Assembly (NCBI GenBank): GCA_964532425.1
Contig: CAZHIA010000003.1
Span: forward strand, 117,365 to 181,364
Direction: 5' to 3'
DNA: 64,000 bases
DNA from: an uncultured Candidatus Saccharibacteria bacterium
GTDB taxonomy: Bacteria; Patescibacteriota; Doudnabacteria; UBA920
Shown: piece after piece, positions 17,431 to 56,328 of the stretch
Layout: each line of letters begins with the position of its first letter
Position numbering within the stretch: position 1 is the first letter of the stretch
The notes under the pieces: generated by a model
What the model saw: only the letters and a program-made list of their open reading frames with translations
What the model was told of the DNA's origin: nothing
The model's database searches: none
Position numbers and translations under genes: made by a program

Positions 17431-17892
17431 TTAGGCGGCGCGGCGTAAGGGTGCCGGGGCGCGCGAATGTTTTTTCTTCATTAGTACCAGCTCGCAGCGG
17501 CCATAGTCTTCGTCGAAGTCGTCAAATGGCAGCGGACAACTCGGGAAATGTTTGAAACGGATTTCTATGGCGGTTCTCCGCTCCCAATATTCCCCTACTG
17601 GAACTAGCCAGGTTTCACGCTCATACTCTTCGCCCGAAAAAATGTACGACTCCTCATATCCTTCACAGTAGTAGCAGCGGCGGTCTACCTCGCTTGTGGA
17701 AATTCGATTCCCTAAAAGACGGGGGTAATGGCTGGTATGAAATCTGACCTCGTCCTCCCATACCAGCGGAGCCGGGGCACTCATGGCTTTTGCATGCTCG
17801 CAGTCCGGCAACAAGTGATACCGGCCCCGTGCAACTCTCCTGCTCTTTTGGCCAGGGTAAATGAGGTTGCCGCACCGAATGCAGAAATGCAT
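17431..17892 (-). CDS. Cys-rich (2x CxxC) hypothetical protein, the second gene of a two-gene operon.
   Basis: SD CAGGAGG 7 nt before the ATG (MHFCIRCGN...CYYCEGY). Confidence 0.55.
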   Translation of the reverse strand: MHFCIRCGNLIYPGQKSRRVARGRYHLLPDCEHAKAMSAPAPLVWEDEVRFHTSHYPRLLGNRISTSEVDRRCYYCEGYEESYIFSGEEYERETWLVPVGEYWERRTAIEIRFKHFPSCPLPFDDFDEDYGRCELVLMKKKHSRAPAPLRRAA

Positions 17893-17983
17893 GATACAGT
17901 CCTCCTGTACTGGCACAACGGTAACATAAATAAATATTTTTGCCAAACAAAATGCGCCAGGCGGACCTGGCGCATACAGGACT

Positions 17984-19198
17984 TTATAAGCCCCAAGGAA
18001 TGCGGAGAAAATCATCCCTCGTGGACAAAACTCCGGGCAGCAGCCCGTCCCCCATCACCGCGGCAAAAATCATACCAAGGTTGGACCAATCAGTGATGGG
18101 CTTTTGGAGAAGGTCGCGAAGCCGGTAGACCTCTACGTATGTTTGCTCGGTCTCGCTAGCGTTCCCTTGCGGCAGGCCATTCTGCTGTTCCGCAATCCGC
18201 ATCTCTTCGTGGGTAAGTTCAACCGAAAAACAGTGAGCCTTGTGAGCGGTAGTCGTACCGGCGAGCTGACGGACGGGCATTTCATTGAGACGGTCCGGAT
18301 CAATTTTGATGCTGGTTTCTTCGAAAAATTCTTTTGCCGCCGTTACCTTGGGCTGTTCCGGCTTGAAACCGGAGCCGCCGGGCACCTCGCGGATAAAACC
18401 GTCAGGGGTCGACGCTGTCGAGCGGAACTCCTTGACCAAAAGAACTTTGGTGGCTAGAAGATCATTCCCGTTCCGGCAGTAAGCCACTATGTGCTTGATG
18501 TCCGGCCGGCCGATGACGATCTCGTTGGTCTTATTCCGATTTTCCGCAGTGACATGAATGTTGGCGTGGATAGCCCAATAGAGCAAGAAGCCTTTCTTCG
18601 GACCCACGCCGAATGCAAGTTCCACCTTGGCGCCGTCGAGCCTGTTGCCGGCGTTCTTCTGTGCCTGCAGCCAGGATTGGAAATGTGCGAGACGCCAAAT
18701 GTGCAGTGGCACCTGACACTCGCCACCGACACGTTCCGCACCCTTGCCGATCTTGGCAAGCGCGGTCTGAATAACCTGACCCATGTCGTTTGACCACTCG
18801 ACAAAATTCCGTTCTGCGAGATAGCTGAGAAACCTGGTCTTCGGCGCGCCTTTCGGAAAACCGAGAACGATGTTTCGGCCGGCGACGCGCTGTCCGAATT
18901 CCACATTCGTCGTAAAGCCGGGTAACTTCTCGAGCTCGCGCGGCACCCAGAATACGATGATGTCGCTCTGATCTTGTGCTTGCTGTTCCCAATCCGCTTG
19001 CGCTTGGTAGCCGGGCGGAAATTTCCCGTCGCGAGGCAGAGGGACAAACACATGGCCTTCAAAACCCGCTTGTTCTAAAGCGGCAAGAAATTCATCGCGC
19101 CACGACGCTGTCTCACTGTCGCGAGGGCTTGGGCCGGCGAGAAATATGGCGGCAGTTACTTTTGTCGGCAACGGTTCCTGCGCATAAATGACTTCCAT
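17984..19198 (-). CDS. Fusion protein: N-terminal nucleoside 2-deoxyribosyltransferase-like (LOG/NDT superfamily) domain plus a C-terminal Nudix-like domain.
   Basis: N-terminus AIFLAGPSPRD (cf. KIYLAGP) and catalytic-Glu block TNVEFGQ. The C-terminus has a degenerate Nudix box GSGFKPEQPKVTAAKEFFEETSI (Gx5Ex7[K]EUxEEx[S]U). SD AGGAGG/AAGGAG before MEVIYAQ. Confidence 0.6.
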   Translation of the reverse strand: MEVIYAQEPLPTKVTAAIFLAGPSPRDSETASWRDEFLAALEQAGFEGHVFVPLPRDGKFPPGYQAQADWEQQAQDQSDIIVFWVPRELEKLPGFTTNVEFGQRVAGRNIVLGFPKGAPKTRFLSYLAERNFVEWSNDMGQVIQTALAKIGKGAERVGGECQVPLHIWRLAHFQSWLQAQKNAGNRLDGAKVELAFGVGPKKGFLLYWAIHANIHVTAENRNKTNEIVIGRPDIKHIVAYCRNGNDLLATKVLLVKEFRSTASTPDGFIREVPGGSGFKPEQPKVTAAKEFFEETSIKIDPDRLNEMPVRQLAGTTTAHKAHCFSVELTHEEMRIAEQQNGLPQGNASETEQTYVEVYRLRDLLQKPITDWSNLGMIFAAVMGDGLLPGVLSTRDDFLRIPWGL

Positions 19199-19342
19199 TG
19201 CAATTCTCCTTTTCTGTTCCTCCTGCTGAGTATAGCTCACGATAATACTATATAATGGCTGCCAGGTCAAACTGGAACAGCTCCCACTCTTGACAAATTA
19301 GCCAGAATATGCTACTGTATAAAGTATATTTTTATTGATAGG

Positions 19343-22216: not shown

Positions 22217-23377
22217 ATGTACAACCACTACACTTGCAACACCGAGAACGCCCTCATGAAGGTGAATGGCCTGTTCGCTGAATTCAACATGCCTAAGGCT
22301 CGCCCGCAGAAATTCCGTAAGTCGGACGGCATTGTTATCATTCCCACTCCCGAAACAGACCCTCAAGAGCTTGTCGGTGCGGTTGAAATGGAACAATCGC
22401 TGCCGGAATACAACCAGCAGCCGGTCTACATGGTGGACAATTATCCGGCCTGCCCGGATTCGTGGATGCGAGGCTCGGCCACGGCCAGTTCGTACTTTGT
22501 CGGCGTAGAAGCCGAACACGGCATGTGGCTGGACTTCAACCGCAATCGCAGCCACACCCACCATGTTGCCGTGCTCATTTCTGTCCAGGGCGTAAGTCCT
22601 CTTACCGCCCAGCCGACCCGCGACAATAAGCTGGAACAGTACAAGACCAACTGTCCGGTACACAACATACCGTTCGAGGCGGAGCGGTACTGTCCGGCCT
22701 GCAAATATAAGTGGCCGCCGCAAAACTACTTGGCGTCCAATGCCACACCCGGAGGGCTACTGTGGCTGGACGGTTTTTTGACCAAGGAAGGCGTGGTGCG
22801 CCAGTACGTGTTCACCAAAGACCAGGCGCGCGGGGTTGCCGCGCAAATTATCGGCAATCAGAGGGTGTTCGCTATCGGCATCAGTTTCTATTTGTCGAAG
22901 CAACCAAAACCCCTTCCGCGATTCGAACGACCCCGATATCGGTCGATGAGCTTTTTGTCCGATGCAACACTCGGCGAAAAGAGCATCGGGTGTTTGGGCG
23001 GAGATGACAACTGGGACGACATCGCCGTTGCTGACGGCGTAGCTGTCGAACCCCAATCATACACTTCGTTTGAAACGCTCGGTGTGCACGAACCGGTAAC
23101 TCGCGGTGCACTCCGAAGCCGCGGAGCCAGGAAAAGCCTGGCATCCAGGGAACGGCTCGAAGTCGCCGCTGGCGCGAAGATCAGCCAGCGCGTCTACGAA
23201 GACCCGGAGAGCCTGGATTTCTGGCAGAGCGAACCTGCCGGAACGCTGTACATCAATTATGCACCGGTCGAACTGGTGCAGGAGATCCTGGCTGCCGGCA
23301 TGGCAGACCGGGACCAAGGAGGAGAAGGACCATTAGCCGGCCTCAAAGTCGGCCATCCGGCCCACTATAACGAATAA
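22217..23377 (+). CDS. Hypothetical protein (386 aa), Cys-containing.
   Basis: AAGGAG SD; terminator at 23386-23417. Confidence 0.6.
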   Translation: MYNHYTCNTENALMKVNGLFAEFNMPKARPQKFRKSDGIVIIPTPETDPQELVGAVEMEQSLPEYNQQPVYMVDNYPACPDSWMRGSATASSYFVGVEAEHGMWLDFNRNRSHTHHVAVLISVQGVSPLTAQPTRDNKLEQYKTNCPVHNIPFEAERYCPACKYKWPPQNYLASNATPGGLLWLDGFLTKEGVVRQYVFTKDQARGVAAQIIGNQRVFAIGISFYLSKQPKPLPRFERPRYRSMSFLSDATLGEKSIGCLGGDDNWDDIAVADGVAVEPQSYTSFETLGVHEPVTRGALRSRGARKSLASRERLEVAAGAKISQRVYEDPESLDFWQSEPAGTLYINYAPVELVQEILAAGMADRDQGGEGPLAGLKVGHPAHYNE

Positions 23378-23385
23378 CCCTCAAC

Positions 23386-23417
23386 GGGCGCCGCTTCATT
23401 GCGGCGCCCGTTTTTTT
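23386..23417 (+). terminator. Rho-independent terminator gggcgccgc-ttcatt-gcggcgccc + TTTTTTT.
   Basis: Seen directly in the sequence. Confidence 0.8.
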
Positions 23418-23583
23418 GTTGTTATTATTTTTTTGTTTTGTAAAAATCCAAATTGTTCTACATTTTACTGCATATGCAGTAAAATGTAGAATAATTTAAT
23501 AGATAAATTTCATCACTGTTATGCTTTTCAAAAATTTATATACAAGTTAGAAAAACAGGCAGCGCGGAGCGCTGCCTGTAGTG

Positions 23584-24546
23584 TTAGGTGAACCGCTTGG
23601 TAAATGCCCCACTGCGGTCGATATGGTCGAGGTCCGGCCGCTCGCTCGAGATGCCGACACGATGCCGGCCCGGCGCAACCTGGAGTGATCCTTCGAGGAT
23701 CTTCAGGCTGTGGGGCGTACCGAACTTTTTCCTGCGTGCGAACGCAGCCAAATGTTCGTTATGAAAGACTTTGAGGTCTCTGTACACTTCGCCGGTCAGG
23801 CGCATCATTTTTGATGCGCAGTCATAGTGAGCTTCCAAAAGTTCCCGGGCTTGCCGGGAGTTCTCGGGAAAGCACGCTGCGATCTCATCCAATCTCTGGC
23901 CAACACCCAGATCCCCCATTGGCTGCACCGCGACCGGAACTGTTATGGGGGTACGAGGATTTTGCAACTGCGTCAACTGTATCAACTTTTTCCCAGCCGC
24001 ATTGCCGGACCGACCCACCGAATGGACTTTGTCCAGCCAGATGCGGGAGCTGACAAGCATATCGGCAATTCCCCCAAAACCTTCAATCACCACAACAGAT
24101 ACCCGCTGTGCAGGGGAAGCAATCTTCAGTGCAGTAAACACCTCAACTCCGGCACCCGGGCCGCCGCCGATGACAACCATCGCATCGGAAGCTTTCACAA
24201 AAACCTGTGTTTCATCGCCGTACCGGCTCTCCCCCATTTGCGGCGGCACGACAATGGCTAAATCCAACTCCGGATGCTGGTGCTTTTTCCCACACTCGGG
24301 CAGCACACCTATAACGCAGAAGCCCGCCTTTTTGGCCAAGCTTGCAACCGCATCTGAAAGATTCCATTTGGTTCCGCCGGTCATAATGGCGATACGCGAA
24401 GCATATTCTTTCAACTCTTCGAATAATTCGGCAAGGATGTCAAGAACCTTCTGTTCATCGCCATCGAGATAACCGCCGGAAAACGAGACCACCCACTCCA
24501 GCCCGTGCTGTTTCTTAAACCCCTGAAGCAATGTACCGTAGTCCAT
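23584..24546 (-). CDS. LOG/SLOG-like (TIGR00725/DprA-LOG superfamily) Rossmann-fold protein with an uncharacterised C-terminal extension of about 130 aa.
   Basis: Motifs VVSFSGGYLDGDEQ, GTKWNLSDAVASLAKKAGFCVIGVLPE and VVIGGGPGAGVEVFTALKIA (cf. LOG PGGxGTxEE). SD GAAGGAGG before MDYGTLL. Confidence 0.55.
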   Translation of the reverse strand: MDYGTLLQGFKKQHGLEWVVSFSGGYLDGDEQKVLDILAELFEELKEYASRIAIMTGGTKWNLSDAVASLAKKAGFCVIGVLPECGKKHQHPELDLAIVVPPQMGESRYGDETQVFVKASDAMVVIGGGPGAGVEVFTALKIASPAQRVSVVVIEGFGGIADMLVSSRIWLDKVHSVGRSGNAAGKKLIQLTQLQNPRTPITVPVAVQPMGDLGVGQRLDEIAACFPENSRQARELLEAHYDCASKMMRLTGEVYRDLKVFHNEHLAAFARRKKFGTPHSLKILEGSLQVAPGRHRVGISSERPDLDHIDRSGAFTKRFT

Positions 24547-24649
24547 ATTCCTCCTTCGTATTCCTGGTATTGAAACACATATTTCAAAGCCGGTCAATAC
24601 AAAATACCGCAGGTCCTTTCGGAGCCTGCGGTGTTGAAATGCTCAGGTG

Positions 24650-25675
24650 CTATTTCTCCAAAGTTCTTGCCGTGGCCAGCTGCCTGACCCGGAGCAACTC
24701 GGTTGTCCTGAGTACGAAATCGATGGCAATGCGATGCTCCTCGCTGAACGGTTCTTCGCCGCTCAGCGCTTTTTCCATTTTGGCGCAGCAGGCTTGGTAG
24801 AGCTCGAAGCTCAGTGATGTCTTACTCTCAAGCAAGGCTCTGACCTGGTTCTCGCTGCCAGGCTGGAGCGCTTTCATCATTGTGCTCTGATTCCACAACC
24901 GGCGCAATCGCGCCCCGCGCACATCTTCCAGATCCTTGCGAACCTGGTCAAATCCTGCTCCGGCCGAAGCGAGCCAGTGCAGCGAATGCATAGCCGCGTA
25001 GTCGGAAAATTCCCTGTCACCGGAACGATCAGCTTCATCCAGGTAATGGTGCAGGTCATCAGCCAGAAACGGCCGGTTATGACACTCGGCGCAGACCACG
25101 CTGTCGATGCTGTAGAGATGAAAGTTAACCGACACCTGCTTGCCGCAGATGGAGCACTTCTTCCCCCACAGCATTTTGTCGAAGTCCCAGTCCCCTGCCG
25201 GAGCCACGCCGCGCGCAGCCAATGTCTGCAGCTTTTCCTCACTGATGCCGCTTAAAAGATCCCACTGGTCGAACCGGCCCATATCGAGCAAGTCCTCGCA
25301 CTCGCGGTCGGCGTACAATTCCCAACGGACCGAAGTGCACAGGCGGCCGGCGCGCCAATTGGCAATAAGAATTTTGGCCGCATCCGGATCATTGAGCGTT
25401 TTGCCCACCAGGCGCTGGTGCTTGCCGTTGAAATCGAGCAAAAAGCGGACTATGGCAGTCTCGCCTGTTTTGCCCTGCGGCTGCATCCAGAACAGGCAGC
25501 GATACGGAGCCCGTTCCGCGGAATGCAAGCTGCGCCAATAAGCCATGGCTTGTTCAGCTGTGTGGCAATGCGGGTAAATGGGTTCCAGCTCGGATTTTAC
25601 CAAGCCGGTGCCGACCAGCGGATGCATCTGGACCGGAAGCTGAGGAAGTGGAGGAATAACAACAAGTTCATTCAT
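24650..25675 (-). CDS. Uncharacterised Zn-ribbon protein, paralog B of 25691-26767.
   Basis: Shares the core ...TSVRWELYAD...GDWDFD...CSICGK...CAEC with the upstream gene; 15-bp gap to the upstream stop. Confidence 0.6.
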   Translation of the reverse strand: MNELVVIPPLPQLPVQMHPLVGTGLVKSELEPIYPHCHTAEQAMAYWRSLHSAERAPYRCLFWMQPQGKTGETAIVRFLLDFNGKHQRLVGKTLNDPDAAKILIANWRAGRLCTSVRWELYADRECEDLLDMGRFDQWDLLSGISEEKLQTLAARGVAPAGDWDFDKMLWGKKCSICGKQVSVNFHLYSIDSVVCAECHNRPFLADDLHHYLDEADRSGDREFSDYAAMHSLHWLASAGAGFDQVRKDLEDVRGARLRRLWNQSTMMKALQPGSENQVRALLESKTSLSFELYQACCAKMEKALSGEEPFSEEHRIAIDFVLRTTELLRVRQLATARTLEK

Positions 25676-25690
25676 AGAGGTCCATCCTTT

Positions 25691-26767
25691 CTAGTTCTGT
25701 ATGACAGCGGCCCGGTCTTGAAACCTGCACGCATGGTTGAGTATGACTTCGTTGATGAGTTGGGGCAGTGCTATTTGCACGTATTGCGGTGAACAGCCAA
25801 GAAGCGCTTCGCGAGTGCGCTGCAAGCTTCCGCTTTGGAGCAACTCGCCGAATTTCCACACCTGCCCAATAAACATTGTCCAATCCTCCGTGCTGGTTTC
25901 CATCAGGAATTTCTTGAACCCTTCCCGGAGATAATGGATGGTCATGAACTTGAACAAGCTCTGGCGCACAATCGCGTGCAGCATTTCCTGCTGACCGCCG
26001 TAGAATGCCGCCTTCTCGTCATCCATGGCCGCACCGGCCTGGACCGTAATCCACCAGTACGCTACGGAATTCGGGGCCGGATCGACGAACTGCTGAATAG
26101 AGAACGCCCCACTCTCTTCACCTGCCGGGTAAAGCGCAAGCCGTTCCTGGCGCTGCCGAAACTTCAGCAGCAAGCGGTTAATGATTCTGCCGCTTTGATC
26201 CCTGCCTGCCGGCTCGCCACACTGCTCGCACGGGAAATGTGGAACGTAAAGGACTGAGGTGCGGTTGCACACTCCCTTGCAGTTCGGACATTTATGGGTC
26301 AGGATGATGTTATCAAAATCCCAGTCCCCGTTTAAGGCCAAGCCTTTGCGGGTCAGGACCGAGAGATCATCGATTGTGGGCAAAAGATCACGCAGATCGA
26401 ACCGGCCGCGTTCAACGAGATTGGTCAGGGCAAAGTCCGCGTACAGTTCCCAGCGCACGGAAGTCAGACTACTCCCTGCCGCAAAGTTGCCGATCAGGAC
26501 CCGAATGGCATCCAAGTCGCATGTTATTTTGCCGACCAGCAAATCATCGCTCTTCCGCGTGCGTTTGCGGTTGACCACATGGCGCAAGAAGGCTTGCCCG
26601 CGGGATTCCTCTATCCAAAAAATAGCCCGTTCCGGCTGGTTTTCCGCTGAGAAGACATCGCGGAAGCTGGCGAACAACTGACGGGTAAAATCGCTTGATT
26701 GCCCAGCCGGCACCACCCTATGTAAGGAGGTACTAGCTGCAACCAGCGATTGGGCATCGTTTTCCAT
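25691..26767 (-). CDS. Uncharacterised Zn-ribbon protein, paralog A and first gene of the three-gene operon.
   Basis: SD CAGGAGG before MENDAQS; motifs TSVRWELYAD, GDWDFD and CPNCKG...CEQCG. Confidence 0.6.
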   Translation of the reverse strand: MENDAQSLVAASTSLHRVVPAGQSSDFTRQLFASFRDVFSAENQPERAIFWIEESRGQAFLRHVVNRKRTRKSDDLLVGKITCDLDAIRVLIGNFAAGSSLTSVRWELYADFALTNLVERGRFDLRDLLPTIDDLSVLTRKGLALNGDWDFDNIILTHKCPNCKGVCNRTSVLYVPHFPCEQCGEPAGRDQSGRIINRLLLKFRQRQERLALYPAGEESGAFSIQQFVDPAPNSVAYWWITVQAGAAMDDEKAAFYGGQQEMLHAIVRQSLFKFMTIHYLREGFKKFLMETSTEDWTMFIGQVWKFGELLQSGSLQRTREALLGCSPQYVQIALPQLINEVILNHACRFQDRAAVIQN

Positions 26768-26915
26768 GATTTCAAATTCCTCCTGTCATGTCTTTGATTA
26801 AGACGTTTGAAATCTGCCAGACCCGCAGCCTGAGGCTGTCAGGTTCCCTTAACAATTTCATAATCCTGACGTTCCGTCAAGCTCTAAAAAAAACTCATTG
26901 TGGTATAATAACCGC

Positions 26916-29399: not shown

Positions 29400-29792
29400 G
29401 TGAGCAAAACTGCGCAAAAGACAATAGTCGATTTCGTCGTCGCAGTTCCGGAAAGCCAGGTCGGACAAAAATTGTACCCCGGCTACCGCTACACCCTCTT
29501 CATTCATGGACTGGACCAGGCTCCATTCCTCACACCGCCTTACCCCCGGCACAAAGACCCGGTCTGGATCAAAGATTTTGAGATCAGGCTGTGCTCTAGC
29601 CACATACAATTTGAATGCCAATCATTCACTTTAGCCCGGCAGCCCGACAGAAGGCCGCCGGTCATCAAAACATGGTTCGAGCTGCTCGACGGCAATGGCG
29701 AGACTGAGGTCCGCCTCTACGCTCTCCCTGAGCAGGAACTGACTCAGAAACTGCGAGTCGACTTTTCCCAGCCAGTACCGGTCCTTAACTGA
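29400..29792 (+). CDS. Hypothetical protein (copy 1 of a tandemly duplicated gene), GTG start.
   Basis: Shares the RBS context gcgcaaggaggatgcggtg and a cctgacagc...gctgtcagg terminator with copy 2. Paralogous over about 80 aa (YPGYRYTLFIHGLDQAPF vs LGRRYGLTIQGVDQTPF). Confidence 0.55.
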   Translation: MSKTAQKTIVDFVVAVPESQVGQKLYPGYRYTLFIHGLDQAPFLTPPYPRHKDPVWIKDFEIRLCSSHIQFECQSFTLARQPDRRPPVIKTWFELLDGNGETEVRLYALPEQELTQKLRVDFSQPVPVLN

Positions 29793-29863: not shown

Positions 29864-30241
29864 GTGGAAGGGACTATCTTTGAACTTTTCCTGGATGTTC
29901 CCGATGACGAATCGGGTCAACCGCTTCAATTAGGACGAAGATACGGATTGACCATTCAAGGAGTGGATCAAACCCCGTTTTTCGACCAACCGTATCCAAA
30001 CGCAACACCTCCTGCCTGGATCAGAGACTATCAGATAAATTTTTTTTCGCCAGATATCATATTCGGTCTCCCAGCAGTCGTTCTCACCCGCCAGTCCGAT
30101 GGCGGCCTCCCCTTCATTGAAACGTGGTGTGAGCTCGTTAAACCTCGGGGCTTGGTTGAAATCCTTGTCTTCCAACTGCCGGAGTTCAAGCTCGTGCAAG
30201 TCCTCCGCTTCCATTTCAGGACCAACTGTGGTCCTGCCTGA
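29864..30241 (+). CDS. Hypothetical protein (copy 2 of the tandem duplication), GTG start.
   Basis: See copy 1. Terminator cctgacagc-gcaa-gctgtcagg at 30238-30262. Confidence 0.55.
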   Translation: MEGTIFELFLDVPDDESGQPLQLGRRYGLTIQGVDQTPFFDQPYPNATPPAWIRDYQINFFSPDIIFGLPAVVLTRQSDGGLPFIETWCELVKPRGLVEILVFQLPEFKLVQVLRFHFRTNCGPA

Positions 30242-39166: not shown

Positions 39167-39531
39167 TTGGCTGATTTATGTGCCGTGTGATCTGAACCCT
39201 ACAACGACTCCCCAAAAACCCAAAATCAGGCTGAGTACCAGGTATTTGTCGGCCAGATCGAAACTCTGGCGGAAAGCGAACCCAACGACACCGAACAAGA
39301 ACAAGACCGAACCGGTAACGAGCGCGTATGAGCGGTGGCTATTTAAAAACATGTAATTTTTACTGCTTTTTCGACCTAGGCCGAAAAAGGTTGAAAAAAT
39401 TGTTAAAACCCGTATAATTATAGCAGCTTAAACCTCCTAAGGAAAGCACCGGAAAAGCTTTCCGAGGGACAAAGAGATATCACTAAATCCTTAATTGGAT
39501 ACGGCTATTGTGCCGTTATCCACACCAACCT

Positions 39532-41541
39532 ATGACCGAAAACTCTTTGCTCGTTGCTGCCCTCGTGGCCAGCCTGATAGCCCTGCTCTATGGGGTCTTT
39601 TTAATTTTTAAAATCCTCCGCCAGCCGCAAGGTTCGGGCAAGATGCTCGAAATTGCCAAAGCCGTCCAAGACGGAGCCAAGGCCTACCTGAACCGCCAGT
39701 ACCGCACCGTCGGCATTGTCGCGGTCGTCATTGTCCTCCTGATGTGGATCGCGCACTTTTCCGGCCATACGATCGTCGGGTTCATTATTGGCGCCGTGCT
39801 CTCCGCGGTTGCCGGATTCATTGGCATGAATATTTCCGTACGCGCCAATGTCCGCACCGCTGAAGCGGCTAAAAAAGGATTATCCGCCGCATTGTCTTTG
39901 GCTTTTGAAGGCGGCACTGTCACCGGCTTGTTCGTTGCCGGGCTCGGACTGCTCTCTGTGACCGTCTTTTACATGACCACCCGTGACCTGCCCGCACTGG
40001 CAGGATTAGCCTTCGGTGCTTCTTTGATCTCCGTTTTTGCCAGACTCGGCGGTGGCATCTTCACTAAAGGTGCTGACGTCGGTACCGACATGGTTGGCAA
40101 GGTCGAAGCTTCCATTCCGGAAGACGATCCGCGCAATCCGGGCGTCATTGCCGATAACGTCGGCGATAACGTCGGTGACTGCGCCGGCATGGCCGCGGAC
40201 CTGTTTGAAACCTATGTTGTGTCCGCTGTCGCCGTTATTTTGCTCGGCAACGTAGTCTTCCCTGGTTTCCTGAATGCCATCTTGTTCCCACTGCTCATCG
40301 GCGCGGCTTCTATTATTACCACCATCATCGGCACCTGGTTTGTCCGCCTGGGCAAGAGCAAGAACATCATGGGCGCCATGTACAAAGGCTTTGCCGTGAC
40401 TGGCGTACTCTCTGCCATAGTCTTCTACCCCCTGACCCAGAAACTCATGGCCGACAACCCGGGCAACATCAGCTGGCAGAATCTCTTCTATTCCTCTTTG
40501 ATCGGTCTTGTCGTCACCGGCCTTATAGTTCTGATCACCGAATTCTACACTTCCAAGTCCTTTAAGCCGGTGCGCGATATTGCCGCAGCTTCCACCACCG
40601 GACATGGTACCAACATCATCAAAGGGCTCGCCGTGGGCATGCAGTCCACCGCCTTACCGGTCATTGTCATCGTCATTGCCATTCTGGCAGCATACAAGCT
40701 AGCCGGATTATATGGCATTGCTTTGTCGGTTATGAGCATGCTTTCCCTGACCGGCATTGTCGTGGCCATTGATGCTTTCGGTCCCATCACTGACAACGCG
40801 GGCGGGATTGCCGAAATGGCTGAACTGGATAAGAGCGTGCGCGATGTGACCGACCCGCTCGATGCGGTCGGCAACACCACCAAAGCCGTCACCAAGGGCT
40901 ATGCCATCGCTTCGGCAGGACTTGCTGCCATGGTACTGTTTGCAGCATACACTCAGGAACTTGCAGCCAATAATATTTCCACTGTCTTCGATCTTTCCAA
41001 TAGCAAAGTCCTGGTTGGATTGCTCATTGGCGGACTGCTCCCCTACTTATTCGCTTCGATTGCCATGTCCGCCGTCGGAAATGCAGCCAAGGCTGTCGTT
41101 GAAGAAGTCCGCCGCCAGTTCCGCGAAATAAAGGGTATTATGGAAGGCACTGCCAAACCGGATTACTCCCGTGCGGTTGACATTGTAACCAAAGCTGCCA
41201 TTAAAGAAATGATCATTCCGGCTCTCATTCCGGTCATCATTCCCATCCTGGTCGGCTGGCTGCTTGGCGCTGCTGCCTTGGGCGGTTTGCTCGTCGGTAC
41301 TATCGTCACCGGACTGTTCGTGGGTATTTCCATGACCACCGGCGGCGCAGCCTGGGACAATGCCAAGAAGTATATTGAAGAAGGCCAGTTTGGCGGCAAA
41401 GGTTCGGACGCTCACAAGGCAGCCGTGACCGGCGACACCGTCGGCGACCCGTACAAGGATACTGCCGGCCCCGCGATTAATCCTATGATTAAAATTATCA
41501 ATATAGTCGCTCTCTTGCTAGTCAAATTCTTAAAGGGCTAA
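39532..41541 (+). CDS. hppA: Membrane-bound proton/sodium-translocating pyrophosphatase (V-type H+-PPase).
   Basis: [40 protein letters not shown] and [11 protein letters not shown] signature blocks; about 16 TM helices. Confidence 0.92.
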
Positions 41542-54816: not shown

Positions 54817-56328
54817 TTACCCCAAACTCCGGCGGAGCTTGCCGGTTTCAGTGATCAGTTCAGTGGCAGCCTTTTGGTCTTCCATAAGCAAGAGCAGGTT
54901 CGATGACAAATTCTTGTGCAAATAGTCGTCTTTGGACTGCGGACCAAGGGTGATCCCCAAATGCTTTTCTGTCAGCGCGATATCTTCCTGGATGCTGTGC
55001 CAAGCCGGATGGCTCACTGCCAGACGTTCAAGGTTCTCGCGGTTCACGTACCGGCCGGCACGAACCAGATCGGAGTGCAAATTATGGTAATAGGTCTGAA
55101 CCACGTCCATCTCGGCATTGGACAGCTGCTTAAACGCGCGTCCGAGTCCGATAAATTCCGGCGGCAGGCCGATGGAATACAGGGCCGCGGTAAAATTAAT
55201 GGCGCGCGGCAGCTGCAGCTTGCCGGCACTGCGCTGATACGCTAAAAAGCCGATATGCTGGCGGCGTTCGCGCCTTCTGGGTACGGCGGCAAACAGCGGT
55301 TGAACATCTTTCAAAATTTTGCCGAGCGCCTGCTGGTAACTCTTCTCACACTTGGCGATTGCTGACTTGACCGCTCCCCGATCGCGCGCCGACACCGGCT
55401 GCACTTGGGTCTTAGGCAACTCTTCTTGTAGGCGCAGAATGGCTTTTTTGACTTTTACCAAAGGATAGTCGTACCGGAAGGCGGACTGGATAGTGACCGT
55501 ACGTACGCCGCCGTATTCGGCCAAAAAGCCGTCCACATTCTCGGGACTCAAACCGCCGCGGAAGATCAGGCTCCCGACGCCGATAATCGGATGCGCCGAG
55601 ATGCCACTCTGTTCCGAAAATTGCGCAATGTCCGAAAGCGCGACTTTATTGGCAAGCATGGTGGCAAGAAGCCCCGAAACCAGTGCCGGATCACTGCGGG
55701 CCAAAAAGGGACGGATGTAGTCCGGCTTGCCGCGGAATTGCTTCTTGTGCATATCCAAATATTCGCGTAGCAGCTTTCCGATGCCCAACTGGCTTTCCAC
55801 GCCTTCCACCAGCGGAATAATCTCCATGTAATCGGTATTGGCCACCGTACGATGGTCGAACGTCTTGCTCTTAAAGCGCGCCAGCTGGCGGAACGAGCGC
55901 TGAATGTACATGAGCTGCTCAGCTTTTTCCGTCATGGGTAAAATAGCTTCAAACAGAGGCGGGCTGTGGAATTTCAGATCTACGGCAAAATCCTCGCTCG
56001 TTAAAATGACCATAAGCGCGCGAATGAGACTATACCCCTGCTCCTTCCAGATGTTTGGCAGCCGGAACGTCAAAAAATGCTCTTTGCCGATATGGAAGTC
56101 TTTAAAGAATTCGTAGTGATTGGAGAACAGTTTGTCGATGACCGCTTCGTCTGCGTACTTTCCTTCCCAGTCCCACATAAACTCTTCCACACCAAGGTCT
56201 TTGTAACAGGCCATGCACTCGCGCAGTTCTTCATAAATATTTACAAAACCGTTCCCGTCCGTTTCCCAGAACGGCGCACAGGCATTGTCCGGGTGCTGAG
56301 TAGCCATTGTAGAAGGAATTTTTCGCAT
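54817..56328 (-). CDS. Archaeal-type phosphoenolpyruvate carboxylase (PepcA-like).
   Basis: N-terminal IPSTMATQHPDNA signature; about 500 aa, much shorter than bacterial Ppc. Confidence 0.85.
   Translation of the reverse strand: MRKIPSTMATQHPDNACAPFWETDGNGFVNIYEELRECMACYKDLGVEEFMWDWEGKYADEAVIDKLFSNHYEFFKDFHIGKEHFLTFRLPNIWKEQGYSLIRALMVILTSEDFAVDLKFHSPPLFEAILPMTEKAEQLMYIQRSFRQLARFKSKTFDHRTVANTDYMEIIPLVEGVESQLGIGKLLREYLDMHKKQFRGKPDYIRPFLARSDPALVSGLLATMLANKVALSDIAQFSEQSGISAHPIIGVGSLIFRGGLSPENVDGFLAEYGGVRTVTIQSAFRYDYPLVKVKKAILRLQEELPKTQVQPVSARDRGAVKSAIAKCEKSYQQALGKILKDVQPLFAAVPRRRERRQHIGFLAYQRSAGKLQLPRAINFTAALYSIGLPPEFIGLGRAFKQLSNAEMDVVQTYYHNLHSDLVRAGRYVNRENLERLAVSHPAWHSIQEDIALTEKHLGITLGPQSKDDYLHKNLSSNLLLLMEDQKAATELITETGKLRRSLG

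What the first reader, a model, noticed from the sequence alone, without database searches (positions are those of the whole stretch)
23584..26767. Three-gene operon: two paralogous Zn-ribbon proteins feeding into a LOG/SLOG-like Rossmann protein - candidate uncharacterised nucleotide-centric system
Seen in the sequence: three minus-strand genes (25691-26767, 24650-25675, 23584-24546) separated by 15 bp and 103 bp, with strong SDs on the first and third. They are bounded by a convergent terminator at 23386-23417 and a hairpin-rich promoter region at 26800-26860. Genes 1 and 2 are clear paralogs: a shared core of about 120 aa with TSVRWELYAD and GDWDFD blocks, followed by a CxxC...CxxC zinc ribbon, and divergent C-terminal halves. 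Gene 3 carries motifs of the LOG/DprA-LOG (SLOG, TIGR00725-like) Rossmann superfamily (GTKWNLSDAVASLAKKAGFCVIGVLPE; VVIGGGPGAGVEVF), plus a C-terminal extension of about 130 aa with no recognisable motif. Established knowledge: LOG-family enzymes are nucleotide N-glycosidases (cytokinin riboside-5'-monophosphate phosphoribohydrolases), and SLOG domains serve as nucleotide-ligand sensors in conflict systems such as Thoeris ThsA. Inference: I cannot place the paralog pair in any family I recognise. The operon sits in a stretch of hypotheticals about 6 kb from a tRNA gene and about 4 kb from a second nucleotide-processing fusion gene, so an accessory (defence or signalling) role is plausible but unproven.
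Basis: partly seen in the sequence, partly recalled or inferred. Interest (0 to 1): 0.82.

Follow-up and report, generated by a model that had tools for sequence, protein, structure and literature searches.

The report
Orphan paralogue-pair cassette beside SLOG gene
The three genes are real, but only the first two (duplicated zinc-ribbon proteins with no detectable relative of known function or structure) travel together as a self-contained 2.2-kb cassette in a few candidate-phyla-radiation bacteria; the third (SLOG) gene is a neighbour seen only in this genome.

Summary
The sequence observation holds. There are three minus-strand genes with 15-nt and 103-nt spacers. Genes 1 and 2 are paralogues (E=8e-28), each with a four-cysteine ribbon. 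Gene 3 passes Pfam's threshold for SLOG cluster 4.

The "three-gene operon feeding into SLOG" reading does not hold. In 14 independent loci the gene1→gene2 pair is always adjacent (gaps of -64 to +15 nt). In 13 of 13 testable loci, the window included, an intrinsic-terminator hairpin follows gene 2. Nothing else recurs beside the pair, and no other locus has this SLOG gene. Between close relatives, DNA homology starts 14 nt before gene 1 and stops just after that terminator.

Gene 3's SLOG domain is closest to the Moco-carrier/TIGR00725 branch. Its standalone relatives sit among nucleotide-metabolism genes, and its 120-aa tail is unique.

My best reading is an autonomous accessory cassette encoding a heterodimer with an acidic/aromatic site beside a zinc ribbon. 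Its function is unknown and probably concerns a nucleic acid or nucleotide.

The parts
26768..26870 (-). Upstream leader and putative promoter of the pair; AGGAGG Shine-Dalgarno site 11 nt before the gene 1 ATG. The promoter itself is unverified.
   Evidence: Sequence. Fold z=-2.4 only. No minus-strand sigma-70 consensus found.
25691..26767 (-). Gene 1 (358 aa), the 'g1-type' paralogue: N-terminal alpha/beta domain with RWE / GRFDxxDLL / WDFD motifs, a 4-Cys zinc ribbon (C160, C163, C180, C183), and a helical C-terminal domain.
   Evidence: ORF. 8 orthologues at 35-52% identity. Alignments A2 and A5. AF2 pLDDT 78.6, pTM 0.79. No Pfam, NCBIfam, PHROG or PADLOC hit.
24650..25675 (-). Gene 2 (341 aa), the 'g2-type' paralogue. 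Same architecture, with cysteines C174, C177, C195, C198, plus a conserved N-terminal LPxLPxxMxPxxGxGL peptide.
   Evidence: ORF. 22 orthologues at 42-61% identity. Alignments A1 and A4. AF2 pLDDT 92.5, pTM 0.85. Only weak zinc-ribbon Pfam hits.
24596..24632 (-). Intrinsic-terminator-like element ending the gene1-gene2 bicistron: 11-bp GC-rich stem with a GAAA loop (24606-24632), then AUUUUGUAUU (24596-24605).
   Evidence: RNA fold z=-3.7. An equivalent hairpin plus T-run follows gene 2 in all 12 other testable loci. DNA homology between relatives ends just past it.
23947..24546 (-). Gene 3, residues 1-200: SLOG cluster 4 Rossmannoid domain (TGGTKWN loop; GGGPGAGVEV motif), with its own GAAGGAGG Shine-Dalgarno site.
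   Evidence: PF18306 39.5 bits, above the 26.3 cut-off. TIGR00725 36 bits, below its 106.9 cut-off. Best PDB matches are Moco carrier protein 2iz5 (E=1e-4) and 1rcu. Standalone relatives of about 200 aa at 36-42% identity.
23584..23946 (-). Gene 3, residues 201-320: basic (pI 9.1) C-terminal extension with no homologue anywhere.
   Evidence: No protein other than itself covers this part. pI. No family or PDB match.
23545..23579 (-). Intrinsic terminator of gene 3: 11-bp stem at 23555-23579, followed by a T-run.
   Evidence: Terminator scan. Fold -21.1 kcal/mol, z=-5.7.
23383..23412 (+). Terminator of the convergent plus-strand gene 22217-23377. This is the locus boundary and not part of the unit.

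Best explanation
The locus is composite: a conserved two-gene cassette plus an unrelated neighbour.

(1) Genes 1 and 2 form an autonomous bicistronic cassette of about 2.2 kb: a Shine-Dalgarno site and leader, gene 1, a tightly coupled gene 2, and an intrinsic terminator.

Shown:
- The two proteins are full-length paralogues.
- Each has an N-terminal alpha-beta-beta-beta-alpha-beta-beta domain carrying the motifs RWE, GRFDxxDLL and WDFD, then a four-cysteine zinc ribbon, then a helical domain.
- The pair is always adjacent, always in the same order and always self-terminated.
- It sits in unrelated genomic contexts in a few CPR (Patescibacteria) lineages.

Inferred:
- The two proteins form a heterodimer, suggested by the obligate pairing, the translational coupling and the roughly 1:1 counts of the two types.
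- In each subunit a cluster of conserved acidic and aromatic residues next to the zinc ribbon forms a metal- or ligand-binding site.
- The most likely activity is on a nucleic acid or a nucleotide-like ligand. I put this functional guess at about 0.3.
- The cassette is an accessory module that is gained, lost or relocated as a unit.

(2) Gene 3 is a separate gene with its own Shine-Dalgarno site and terminator. It is a SLOG cluster 4 protein of the Moco-carrier/TIGR00725 branch with a unique basic tail. It is most likely a nucleotide- or cofactor-binding or nucleotide-processing protein linked to salvage metabolism. Its position next to the pair is specific to this lineage.
For: - Pairing: in 14 distinct loci the g1-type gene is followed directly by the g2-type gene, with gaps of -64 to +15 nt.
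- Counts of the two types are balanced: 56 g1-type and 46 g2-type.
- A terminator hairpin plus T-run follows gene 2 in 13 of 13 loci.
- Cassette boundaries: L013 and L029 are 84.7% identical only from -14 of the gene 1 ATG to +57 after the gene 2 stop. L019 and L017 are 69.6% identical only across the pair. The flanks are unrelated in both comparisons.
- All-vs-all BLAST of flanking ORFs finds no other family recurring in more than two loci.
- The downstream gene differs in every locus: SLOG, LPD3, a Zeta_toxin/AAA_33 kinase, an SMC/AAA_15 ATPase, and unrelated proteins of 89-138 aa. In 4 loci it is convergent: a TsaD-like gene, HPF, an aaRS and an unknown.
- Paralogy and invariant residues.
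- The folds are confident: pLDDT 92.5 and 78.6.
- Gene 3: PF18306. It has no full-length homologue. Its relatives lie beside NrdD/NrdG/dCMP deaminase/ThyX or PRK/HAD genes. The closest PDB entry is the Moco carrier protein. The subfamily HMM hits no other pair locus.
Against: - Read-through of the gene 2 terminator cannot be excluded. Gene 3 is on the same strand only 103 nt away.
- Several same-strand downstream neighbours have domain types common in conflict systems: SLOG, LPD3, a Zeta-toxin-like kinase, and an SMC/AAA_15 ATPase that hits the PADLOC models mad3, LmuB and AriA.
- In L008 a divergent neighbour has sub-threshold PRTase and SLOG-like hits. A loose 'conserved core plus variable partner' relation is therefore not excluded.
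- The heterodimer, the metal or ligand site and the nucleic-acid target are inferences only.
- The overall charge is near neutral to acidic (pI 6.1-6.7), which does not particularly favour nucleic-acid binding.
- No fold search was run on the N-terminal domain alone, and AFDB could not be searched. A distant structural relative may therefore have been missed.
Confidence: 0.65

Rival explanations
1. First reader's model, generalised. The pair is the conserved sensor or regulator core of a modular conflict system, and the gene after it is a swappable effector: SLOG with a tail here, and LPD3, a Zeta-like kinase or an SMC-type ATPase elsewhere.
For: - Four same-strand downstream neighbours belong to domain classes frequent in conflict systems.
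- Integrase, transposase, serine recombinase, KAP NTPase and ParE/HicB genes lie nearby in L013, L029, L008 and L011.
- L008 has a sub-threshold PRTase + SLOG-like neighbour.
Against: - A terminator separates the pair from the next gene in all 13 loci.
- In 4 loci the next gene is convergent and is housekeeping or unknown.
- Other downstream genes are small unrelated unknowns.
- No PADLOC hit for the pair or for gene 3.
- The pair is absent from phage, plasmid and viral collections.
- The SLOG subfamily is found in no other pair locus.
Confidence: 0.12
2. The pair on its own is a stand-alone two-gene defence or anti-mobile-element system: a heterodimeric metal-dependent nuclease, analogous to heterodimeric restriction enzymes built from paralogous subunits.
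For: - Patchy distribution.
- Cassette-like boundaries and variable contexts, some next to recombinases and toxin-antitoxin genes.
- Invariant acidic residues beside a zinc ribbon in both subunits.
Against: - No nuclease motif was recognised (PD-(D/E)xK, HNH, RNase H-like or GIY-YIG; inspection of alignments A1-A5), and no structural hit supports one.
- No methyltransferase or other self-protection partner is present.
- No PADLOC match.
- Half of the contexts are ordinary housekeeping genes.
Confidence: 0.2
3. The pair is a lineage-specific cellular factor of CPR bacteria, for example an RNA- or ribosome-associated or regulatory zinc-ribbon heterodimer. It would be inherited mostly vertically and lost often, and would not be a mobile or conflict element.
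For: - Base composition matches the host.
- Its own promoter-like and terminator signals, and neighbours such as HPF (2 loci), TsaD-like, aaRS/TGT/RecO and YceG genes.
- A recurrent leader motif suggests regulated expression.
Against: - Present in only 4 of 185,579 species representatives, and spread across distant CPR classes.
- No conserved synteny at all.
- The flanks differ even between cassettes that are 85% identical.
Confidence: 0.15

Closest known systems
SLOG cluster 4 family (Pfam PF18306), TIGR00725, and the Chlamydomonas molybdenum-cofactor carrier protein (PDB 2iz5): closest to gene 3
   Same: The Rossmannoid SLOG domain scores above the Pfam threshold. The GGGPGAGVEV motif aligns with GMGPGTAAEV of the carrier protein and GGEIGTAIEI of 1rcu. 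The closest relatives are standalone proteins of about 200 aa.
   Different: It scores below the TIGR00725 cut-off (36 vs 106.9 bits). It carries a unique basic C-terminal extension of 120 aa with no homologue. The ligand is unknown.
LOG cytokinin riboside 5'-monophosphate phosphoribohydrolases
   Same: Same superfamily. The glutamate of the PGGxGTxxE-type motif is retained (GGGPGAGVE).
   Different: NF058542 scores 16 bits against a cut-off of 300, and PF03641 scores 18.3 bits against 27. The motif's Thr is replaced by Ala. LOG enzymes score lower than the carrier protein in PDB (E=0.015 vs 1e-4).
Thoeris ThsA-type SLOG sensors and nucleotide-centric conflict systems (Burroughs et al. 2015, as cited in PMC6459960 and PMC9503650)
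   Same: They use a SLOG domain, and a NUDIX/deoxyribosyltransferase-like fusion lies 4 kb away.
   Different: No PADLOC ThsA or other defence model matches. There is no SIR2, TIR or other effector or generator partner. The SLOG relatives sit in nucleotide-metabolism contexts.
Generic four-cysteine zinc ribbons (DUF4428, Zn_ribbon families, Rpo12/RpoP): the only recognisable element in genes 1 and 2
   Same: A CxxC-x16/17-CxxC pattern with invariant cysteines. Weak but recurrent hits to zinc-ribbon models.
   Different: The ribbon covers about 35 of roughly 350 residues. The flanking N-terminal alpha/beta domain and the helical domain match nothing.
Heterodimeric enzymes built from adjacent paralogous subunits, such as heterodimeric restriction endonucleases (from my own knowledge; an analogy only)
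   Same: Adjacent, translationally coupled paralogues that both keep the putative active-site residues.
   Different: No sequence or structural relation, and no accompanying methyltransferase. Activity has not been shown.

Membership tests
SLOG cluster 4 (PF18306), gene 3 | Score at or above Pfam's gathering threshold | tested here: met
   39.5 bits vs 26.3, residues 50-144
TIGR00725 family, gene 3 | Score at or above the NCBIfam cut-off | tested here: not met
   36 bits vs 106.9
LOG phosphoribohydrolase, gene 3 | Equivalog/Pfam score, and an intact PGGxGTxxE motif | tested here: not met
   NF058542 16.2 bits vs 300; PF03641 18.3 bits vs 27. The motif reads GGGPGAGVE: Glu kept, Thr replaced by Ala.
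LOG phosphoribohydrolase, gene 3 | N-glycosidase activity on nucleoside monophosphates | not testable with these tools
   Needs an enzyme assay
Thoeris ThsA / known defence systems, all three genes | Match to a defence-system protein model and presence of the partner genes | tested here: not met
   No PADLOC hit at E<=0.1. No TIR or SIR2 neighbour among the neighbouring ORFs scanned against Pfam.
Three-gene operon or system, as proposed | Co-occurrence of the three genes in related genomes | tested here: not met
   0 of 13 other loci have this SLOG gene. Full-length gene 3 is unique.
Three-gene operon or system, as proposed | Single transcription unit | tested here: inconclusive
   A terminator-like hairpin plus U-run lies between genes 2 and 3 and is conserved in all loci. 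Read-through cannot be tested here.
Conserved gene1-gene2 cassette (defined here) | g1-type then g2-type, adjacent, same strand, followed by a terminator | tested here: met
   14 of 14 loci for order and adjacency; 13 of 13 for the terminator. Homology boundaries.
Zinc ribbon, genes 1 and 2 | Four conserved Cys as two CxxC knuckles on beta-hairpins | tested here: met
   The four Cys are invariant in g1-type; in g2-type two are invariant and two are conserved in at least 90% of sequences. Beta-hairpin in the AF2 model. Recurrent weak zinc-ribbon hits.
Known nuclease folds (PD-(D/E)xK, HNH, RNase H-like), genes 1 and 2 | Catalytic motif in the canonical secondary-structure positions, or a significant structural match | tested here: not met
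Phage or plasmid-borne gene, genes 1 and 2 | Homologues in viral or plasmid collections | tested here: not met
   None in IMG/VR, INPHARED, PLSDB or PHROGs

The most novel reading that the evidence does not exclude
The gene1-gene2 cassette is a previously unseen kind of autonomous two-gene module built on a new protein fold. It would encode a heterodimeric zinc-ribbon enzyme with paired acidic/aromatic active sites. It would relocate between CPR genomes as a unit running from promoter to terminator, and would act on nucleic acids or nucleotide-derived molecules, for example in defence or in host-symbiont conflict.
Probability: 0.3. Interest if true: 0.75.

Novelty: categorically new. Interest (0 to 1): 0.5.

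Why it matters
CPR (Patescibacteria) genomes are full of unannotated genes, and few of these can be delimited as functional units. Here comparative data define a precise 2.2-kb unit with its own expression signals. It encodes two full-length paralogues that fold confidently yet match nothing in the sequence or structure libraries. This gives a clean, small target for structural and biochemical work, and possibly a new fold and a new activity.

The result also corrects an attractive but unsupported "nucleotide-centric three-gene system" annotation. The SLOG gene is an independent protein of the Moco-carrier/TIGR00725 branch. Adjacency in a single genome was misleading.

The "new" label is by exclusion, and function is unknown, so the practical importance remains to be shown.

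Tried and rejected
- Pfam, NCBIfam, PHROG and PADLOC scans of genes 1 and 2, alone and for every family member, gave only sub-threshold zinc-ribbon hits. The 'HEWD' and 'KH_NucS_shadow' hits were short or single-member noise.
- PDB profile searches with four alignments gave only zinc ribbons.
- I considered and rejected PD-(D/E)xK, RNase H-like, HNH, Toprim, HEPN (Rx4H is not conserved; the window has E in place of R) and Fpg/Nei-like readings, after inspecting the alignments.
- A recurring SLOG partner: the L008 neighbour is only sub-threshold and is not hit by the subfamily HMM.
- Prophage context in L030: no supporting PHROG hits.
- Integration at tRNA-Gln: no integrase was found among the window ORFs scanned near the tRNA.
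- Compositional evidence for foreign origin: none.
- Extra copies of the core elsewhere in the window: none.
- Organism name for the window contig: not obtainable.
- Burroughs et al. 2015 could not be read.
- The first metagenome scan, with the core alignment, failed for lack of a conserved stretch. I repeated it with A1.
Full report
**1. Observation**

The three minus-strand ORFs exist exactly as described. Gene 1 is 25691-26767 (358 aa), gene 2 is 24650-25675 (341 aa) and gene 3 is 23584-24546 (320 aa). The spacers are 15 and 103 nt, and AGGAGG-type ribosome-binding sites precede genes 1 and 3.

Genes 1 and 2 are paralogues. BLASTP gives 36% identity over 179 residues, E=8e-28. With deep family alignments the profile-profile comparison gives 100% probability, E=4e-42, over 270 columns. 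They are therefore full-length duplicates and do not merely share a 120-aa core.

Gene 3 matches Pfam SLOG cluster 4 (PF18306) at 39.5 bits against a threshold of 26.3. It stays far below the NCBIfam cut-offs for TIGR00725 (36 vs 106.9) and for LOG phosphoribohydrolase (16 vs 300).

The plus-strand terminator at 23383-23412 is real.
- a strong minus-strand terminator directly after gene 3 (23579-23555, z=-5.7);
- a terminator-like element inside the 103-nt spacer: an 11-bp GC-rich stem with a GAAA loop at 24606-24632, followed by AUUUUGUAUU (z=-3.7).

**2. The conserved unit**

Gene 2 has 22 orthologues at 42-61% identity, and gene 1 has 8 detectable by the word-indexed search. Full-length gene 3 has no homologue except itself. 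Only its first 200 residues or so match standalone SLOG proteins of about 200 aa, at 36-42% identity.

I recovered 14 distinct loci, counting the window. HMM classification shows that in every one a g1-type gene is followed directly by a g2-type gene on the same strand, with gaps of -64 to +15 nt.

All-vs-all BLAST of the flanking ORFs finds no other family that recurs in more than two loci. A subfamily SLOG HMM hits only the window.

The gene after the pair differs from locus to locus:
- LPD3 next to an integrase (L013);
- an unrelated 137-aa protein next to a transposase, a serine recombinase and a KAP NTPase (L029);
- a Zeta_toxin/AAA_33 kinase (L019);
- an SMC/AAA_15 ATPase (L015);
- small unknown proteins (L008, L011, L030);
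- in four loci, a convergent gene: a TsaD-like gene identified by eye, HPF, a class II aminoacyl-tRNA synthetase, or an unknown.

In all 13 loci where sequence follows gene 2, a GC-rich hairpin plus T-run lies within about 50 nt of the stop codon.

The DNA homology boundaries are decisive. L013 and L029 are 84.7% identical from 14 nt upstream of gene 1 to 57 nt past the gene 2 stop, and unrelated on both sides. L019 and L017 show the same pattern at 69.6% identity. The conserved entity is therefore a self-terminated bicistronic cassette of about 2.2 kb. Gene 3 is a neighbour specific to this lineage.

**3. The pair proteins**

AlphaFold2 gives confident models: gene 2 at pLDDT 92.5 and pTM 0.85, gene 1 at 78.6 and 0.79. 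The shared architecture is:
- an N-terminal alpha-beta-beta-beta-alpha-beta-beta domain;
- two short helices;
- an acidic loop;
- a zinc ribbon on beta-hairpins;
- an all-helical C-terminal domain.

Across 34 g2-type and 43 g1-type sequences, the invariant or nearly invariant residues are RWE, GRFDxxDLL, WDFD and the four cysteines. This is a dense cluster of acidic and aromatic side chains immediately before the ribbon, and both paralogues retain it.

Nothing known matches:
- Pfam, NCBIfam, PHROGs and PADLOC give only sub-threshold zinc-ribbon hits, even when every family member is scanned.
- PDB profile searches find only zinc ribbons.
- Foldseek finds nothing at E<=1e-3 in PDB or BFVD.
- An exhaustive HMMER scan of 1.84 billion cluster representatives with the shared core finds only 78 proteins at E<1e-10. 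All are single-architecture proteins, the complete ones 300-440 aa long (shorter hits look like fragments), with the core at the N-terminus and no fusions. They split about evenly into the two types.

**4. Distribution and context**

The pair occurs in 4 of 185,579 species-representative genomes. These are labelled Saccharibacteria, Taylorbacteria, an unclassified bin, and one labelled Gammaproteobacteria. It is absent from IMG/VR, INPHARED phages and PLSDB plasmids.

Some contexts carry recombinases, toxin-antitoxin genes or defence-type ATPases. Others are plainly housekeeping.

Base composition in the window matches the host. I could not obtain the taxon of the window's own contig.

**5. 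Gene 3**

Its best solved relatives are the Chlamydomonas molybdenum-cofactor carrier protein (2iz5, E=1e-4) and T. maritima 1rcu. The motif GGGPGAGVEV aligns with GMGPGTAAEV and GGEIGTAIEI. Genuine LOG enzymes score lower (E=0.015).

Standalone relatives lie next to NrdD, NrdG, dCMP deaminase, thioredoxin and ThyX in one case. In a Nanoarchaeota genome they lie next to a uridine-kinase-like PRK and a HAD hydrolase. These are nucleotide-metabolism settings and not defence islands.

SLOG domains range from N-glycosidases to non-catalytic ligand binders (PMC9503650, PMC6459960). Which of these applies to gene 3 is untested. The 120-aa C-terminal tail is basic (pI 9.1) and has no homologue.

**6. 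Mechanism**

Shown: an obligately paired, self-terminated cassette of full-length paralogues with a conserved acidic/aromatic cluster and a zinc ribbon.

Inferred:
- The two proteins form a heterodimer, from the invariable adjacency, the frequent start/stop overlap and the balanced counts of the two types.
- Each subunit contributes a metal- or ligand-binding pocket beside its ribbon.
- The target is most plausibly a nucleic acid or a nucleotide-like molecule. My confidence in this step is low, about 0.3.

The near-neutral to acidic charge and the absence of any recognisable nuclease motif argue for caution.

Rival readings are listed with their tests in the rivals section: a conserved core with swappable effectors, a stand-alone defence nuclease, and a lineage-specific cellular factor.

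**7. Verdict**

The interpretation as a three-gene, SLOG-centred nucleotide system is not supported.

What remains is an orphan two-gene cassette that is new by exclusion. It is moderately interesting because it is sharply delimited and confidently folded, but there is no functional evidence yet.

Limitations:
- no fold search was run on the N-terminal domain alone;
- AFDB was unavailable;
- no complex prediction was possible;
- there are no expression data.

Noticed in passing
window 23450-23497: A 48-nt near-perfect AT-rich palindrome (24-nt arms, 96% complementary, no spacer) lies in the intergenic gap between the two convergent terminators. It overlaps promoter-like hexamers on both strands. 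Its purpose is unknown.
   Followed up: no
window 17984-19270 (-): A 428-aa fusion of a nucleoside 2-deoxyribosyltransferase-like domain (PF15891, 34 bits) and NUDIX (PF00293). A Cys-rich 194-aa ORF (17431-18015) overlaps its 3' end, and tRNA-Gln is adjacent. I did not examine its relation to gene 3.
   Followed up: partly
L008, L011, L015, L020 and L022, 35-55 nt upstream of the gene 1 start: The motif [CT]TTGA[AG]AA recurs on the coding strand in the leader of 5 of 10 pair loci. Uncorrected P is about 1e-7 against the background rate, and roughly 1e-2 to 1e-3 after allowing for post-hoc choice. In L015, L020 and L022 it lies about 14 nt after a TTGACA-N16/17-TAnnnT promoter. It is not present in this orientation in the window.
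   Followed up: partly
L008 6985-8682 (-): The divergent upstream neighbour of the pair is a 565-aa protein with sub-threshold phosphoribosyltransferase (22.9 bits) and SLOG cluster 4/2 (22.7 and 18.2 bits) hits. The window's SLOG subfamily HMM does not hit it.
   Followed up: partly
starts of L013, L029 and L031: Three long contigs (17-34 kb) begin only 78-172 nt upstream of gene 1, and several short contigs also break near the cassette ends. This suggests strain-variable junctions or assembly breaks at the cassette boundary.
   Followed up: partly
window 29400-29792 and 29864-30241 (+): Two tandem ORFs of 130 and 125 aa are paralogues: 41% identity, E=7e-30. The first has no Pfam match; the second was not scanned.
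   Followed up: partly
L023, L024 and L025: A standalone relative of gene 3's SLOG domain (P0033) sits just after an NrdD-NrdG-dCMP deaminase-thioredoxin-ThyX block and before a long run of unannotated small genes. This could be a virus or another mobile element that carries dNTP-metabolism genes.
   Followed up: no
L015 9207-11912 (+): A 901-aa SMC_N/AAA_15/AAA_21 ATPase lies 244 nt downstream of the pair. It hits PADLOC mad3 (E=6e-58) and the LmuB, AriA and GajA heads. It is followed by a 1007-aa T2SSE-containing protein. I could not tell whether it is a defence ATPase or a housekeeping one.
   Followed up: partly
window 54817-56328 (-): An archaeal-type phosphoenolpyruvate carboxylase (PF14010, E=8e-130) lies in this bacterial-looking contig, alongside an H+-pyrophosphatase at 39508-41541.
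   Followed up: no
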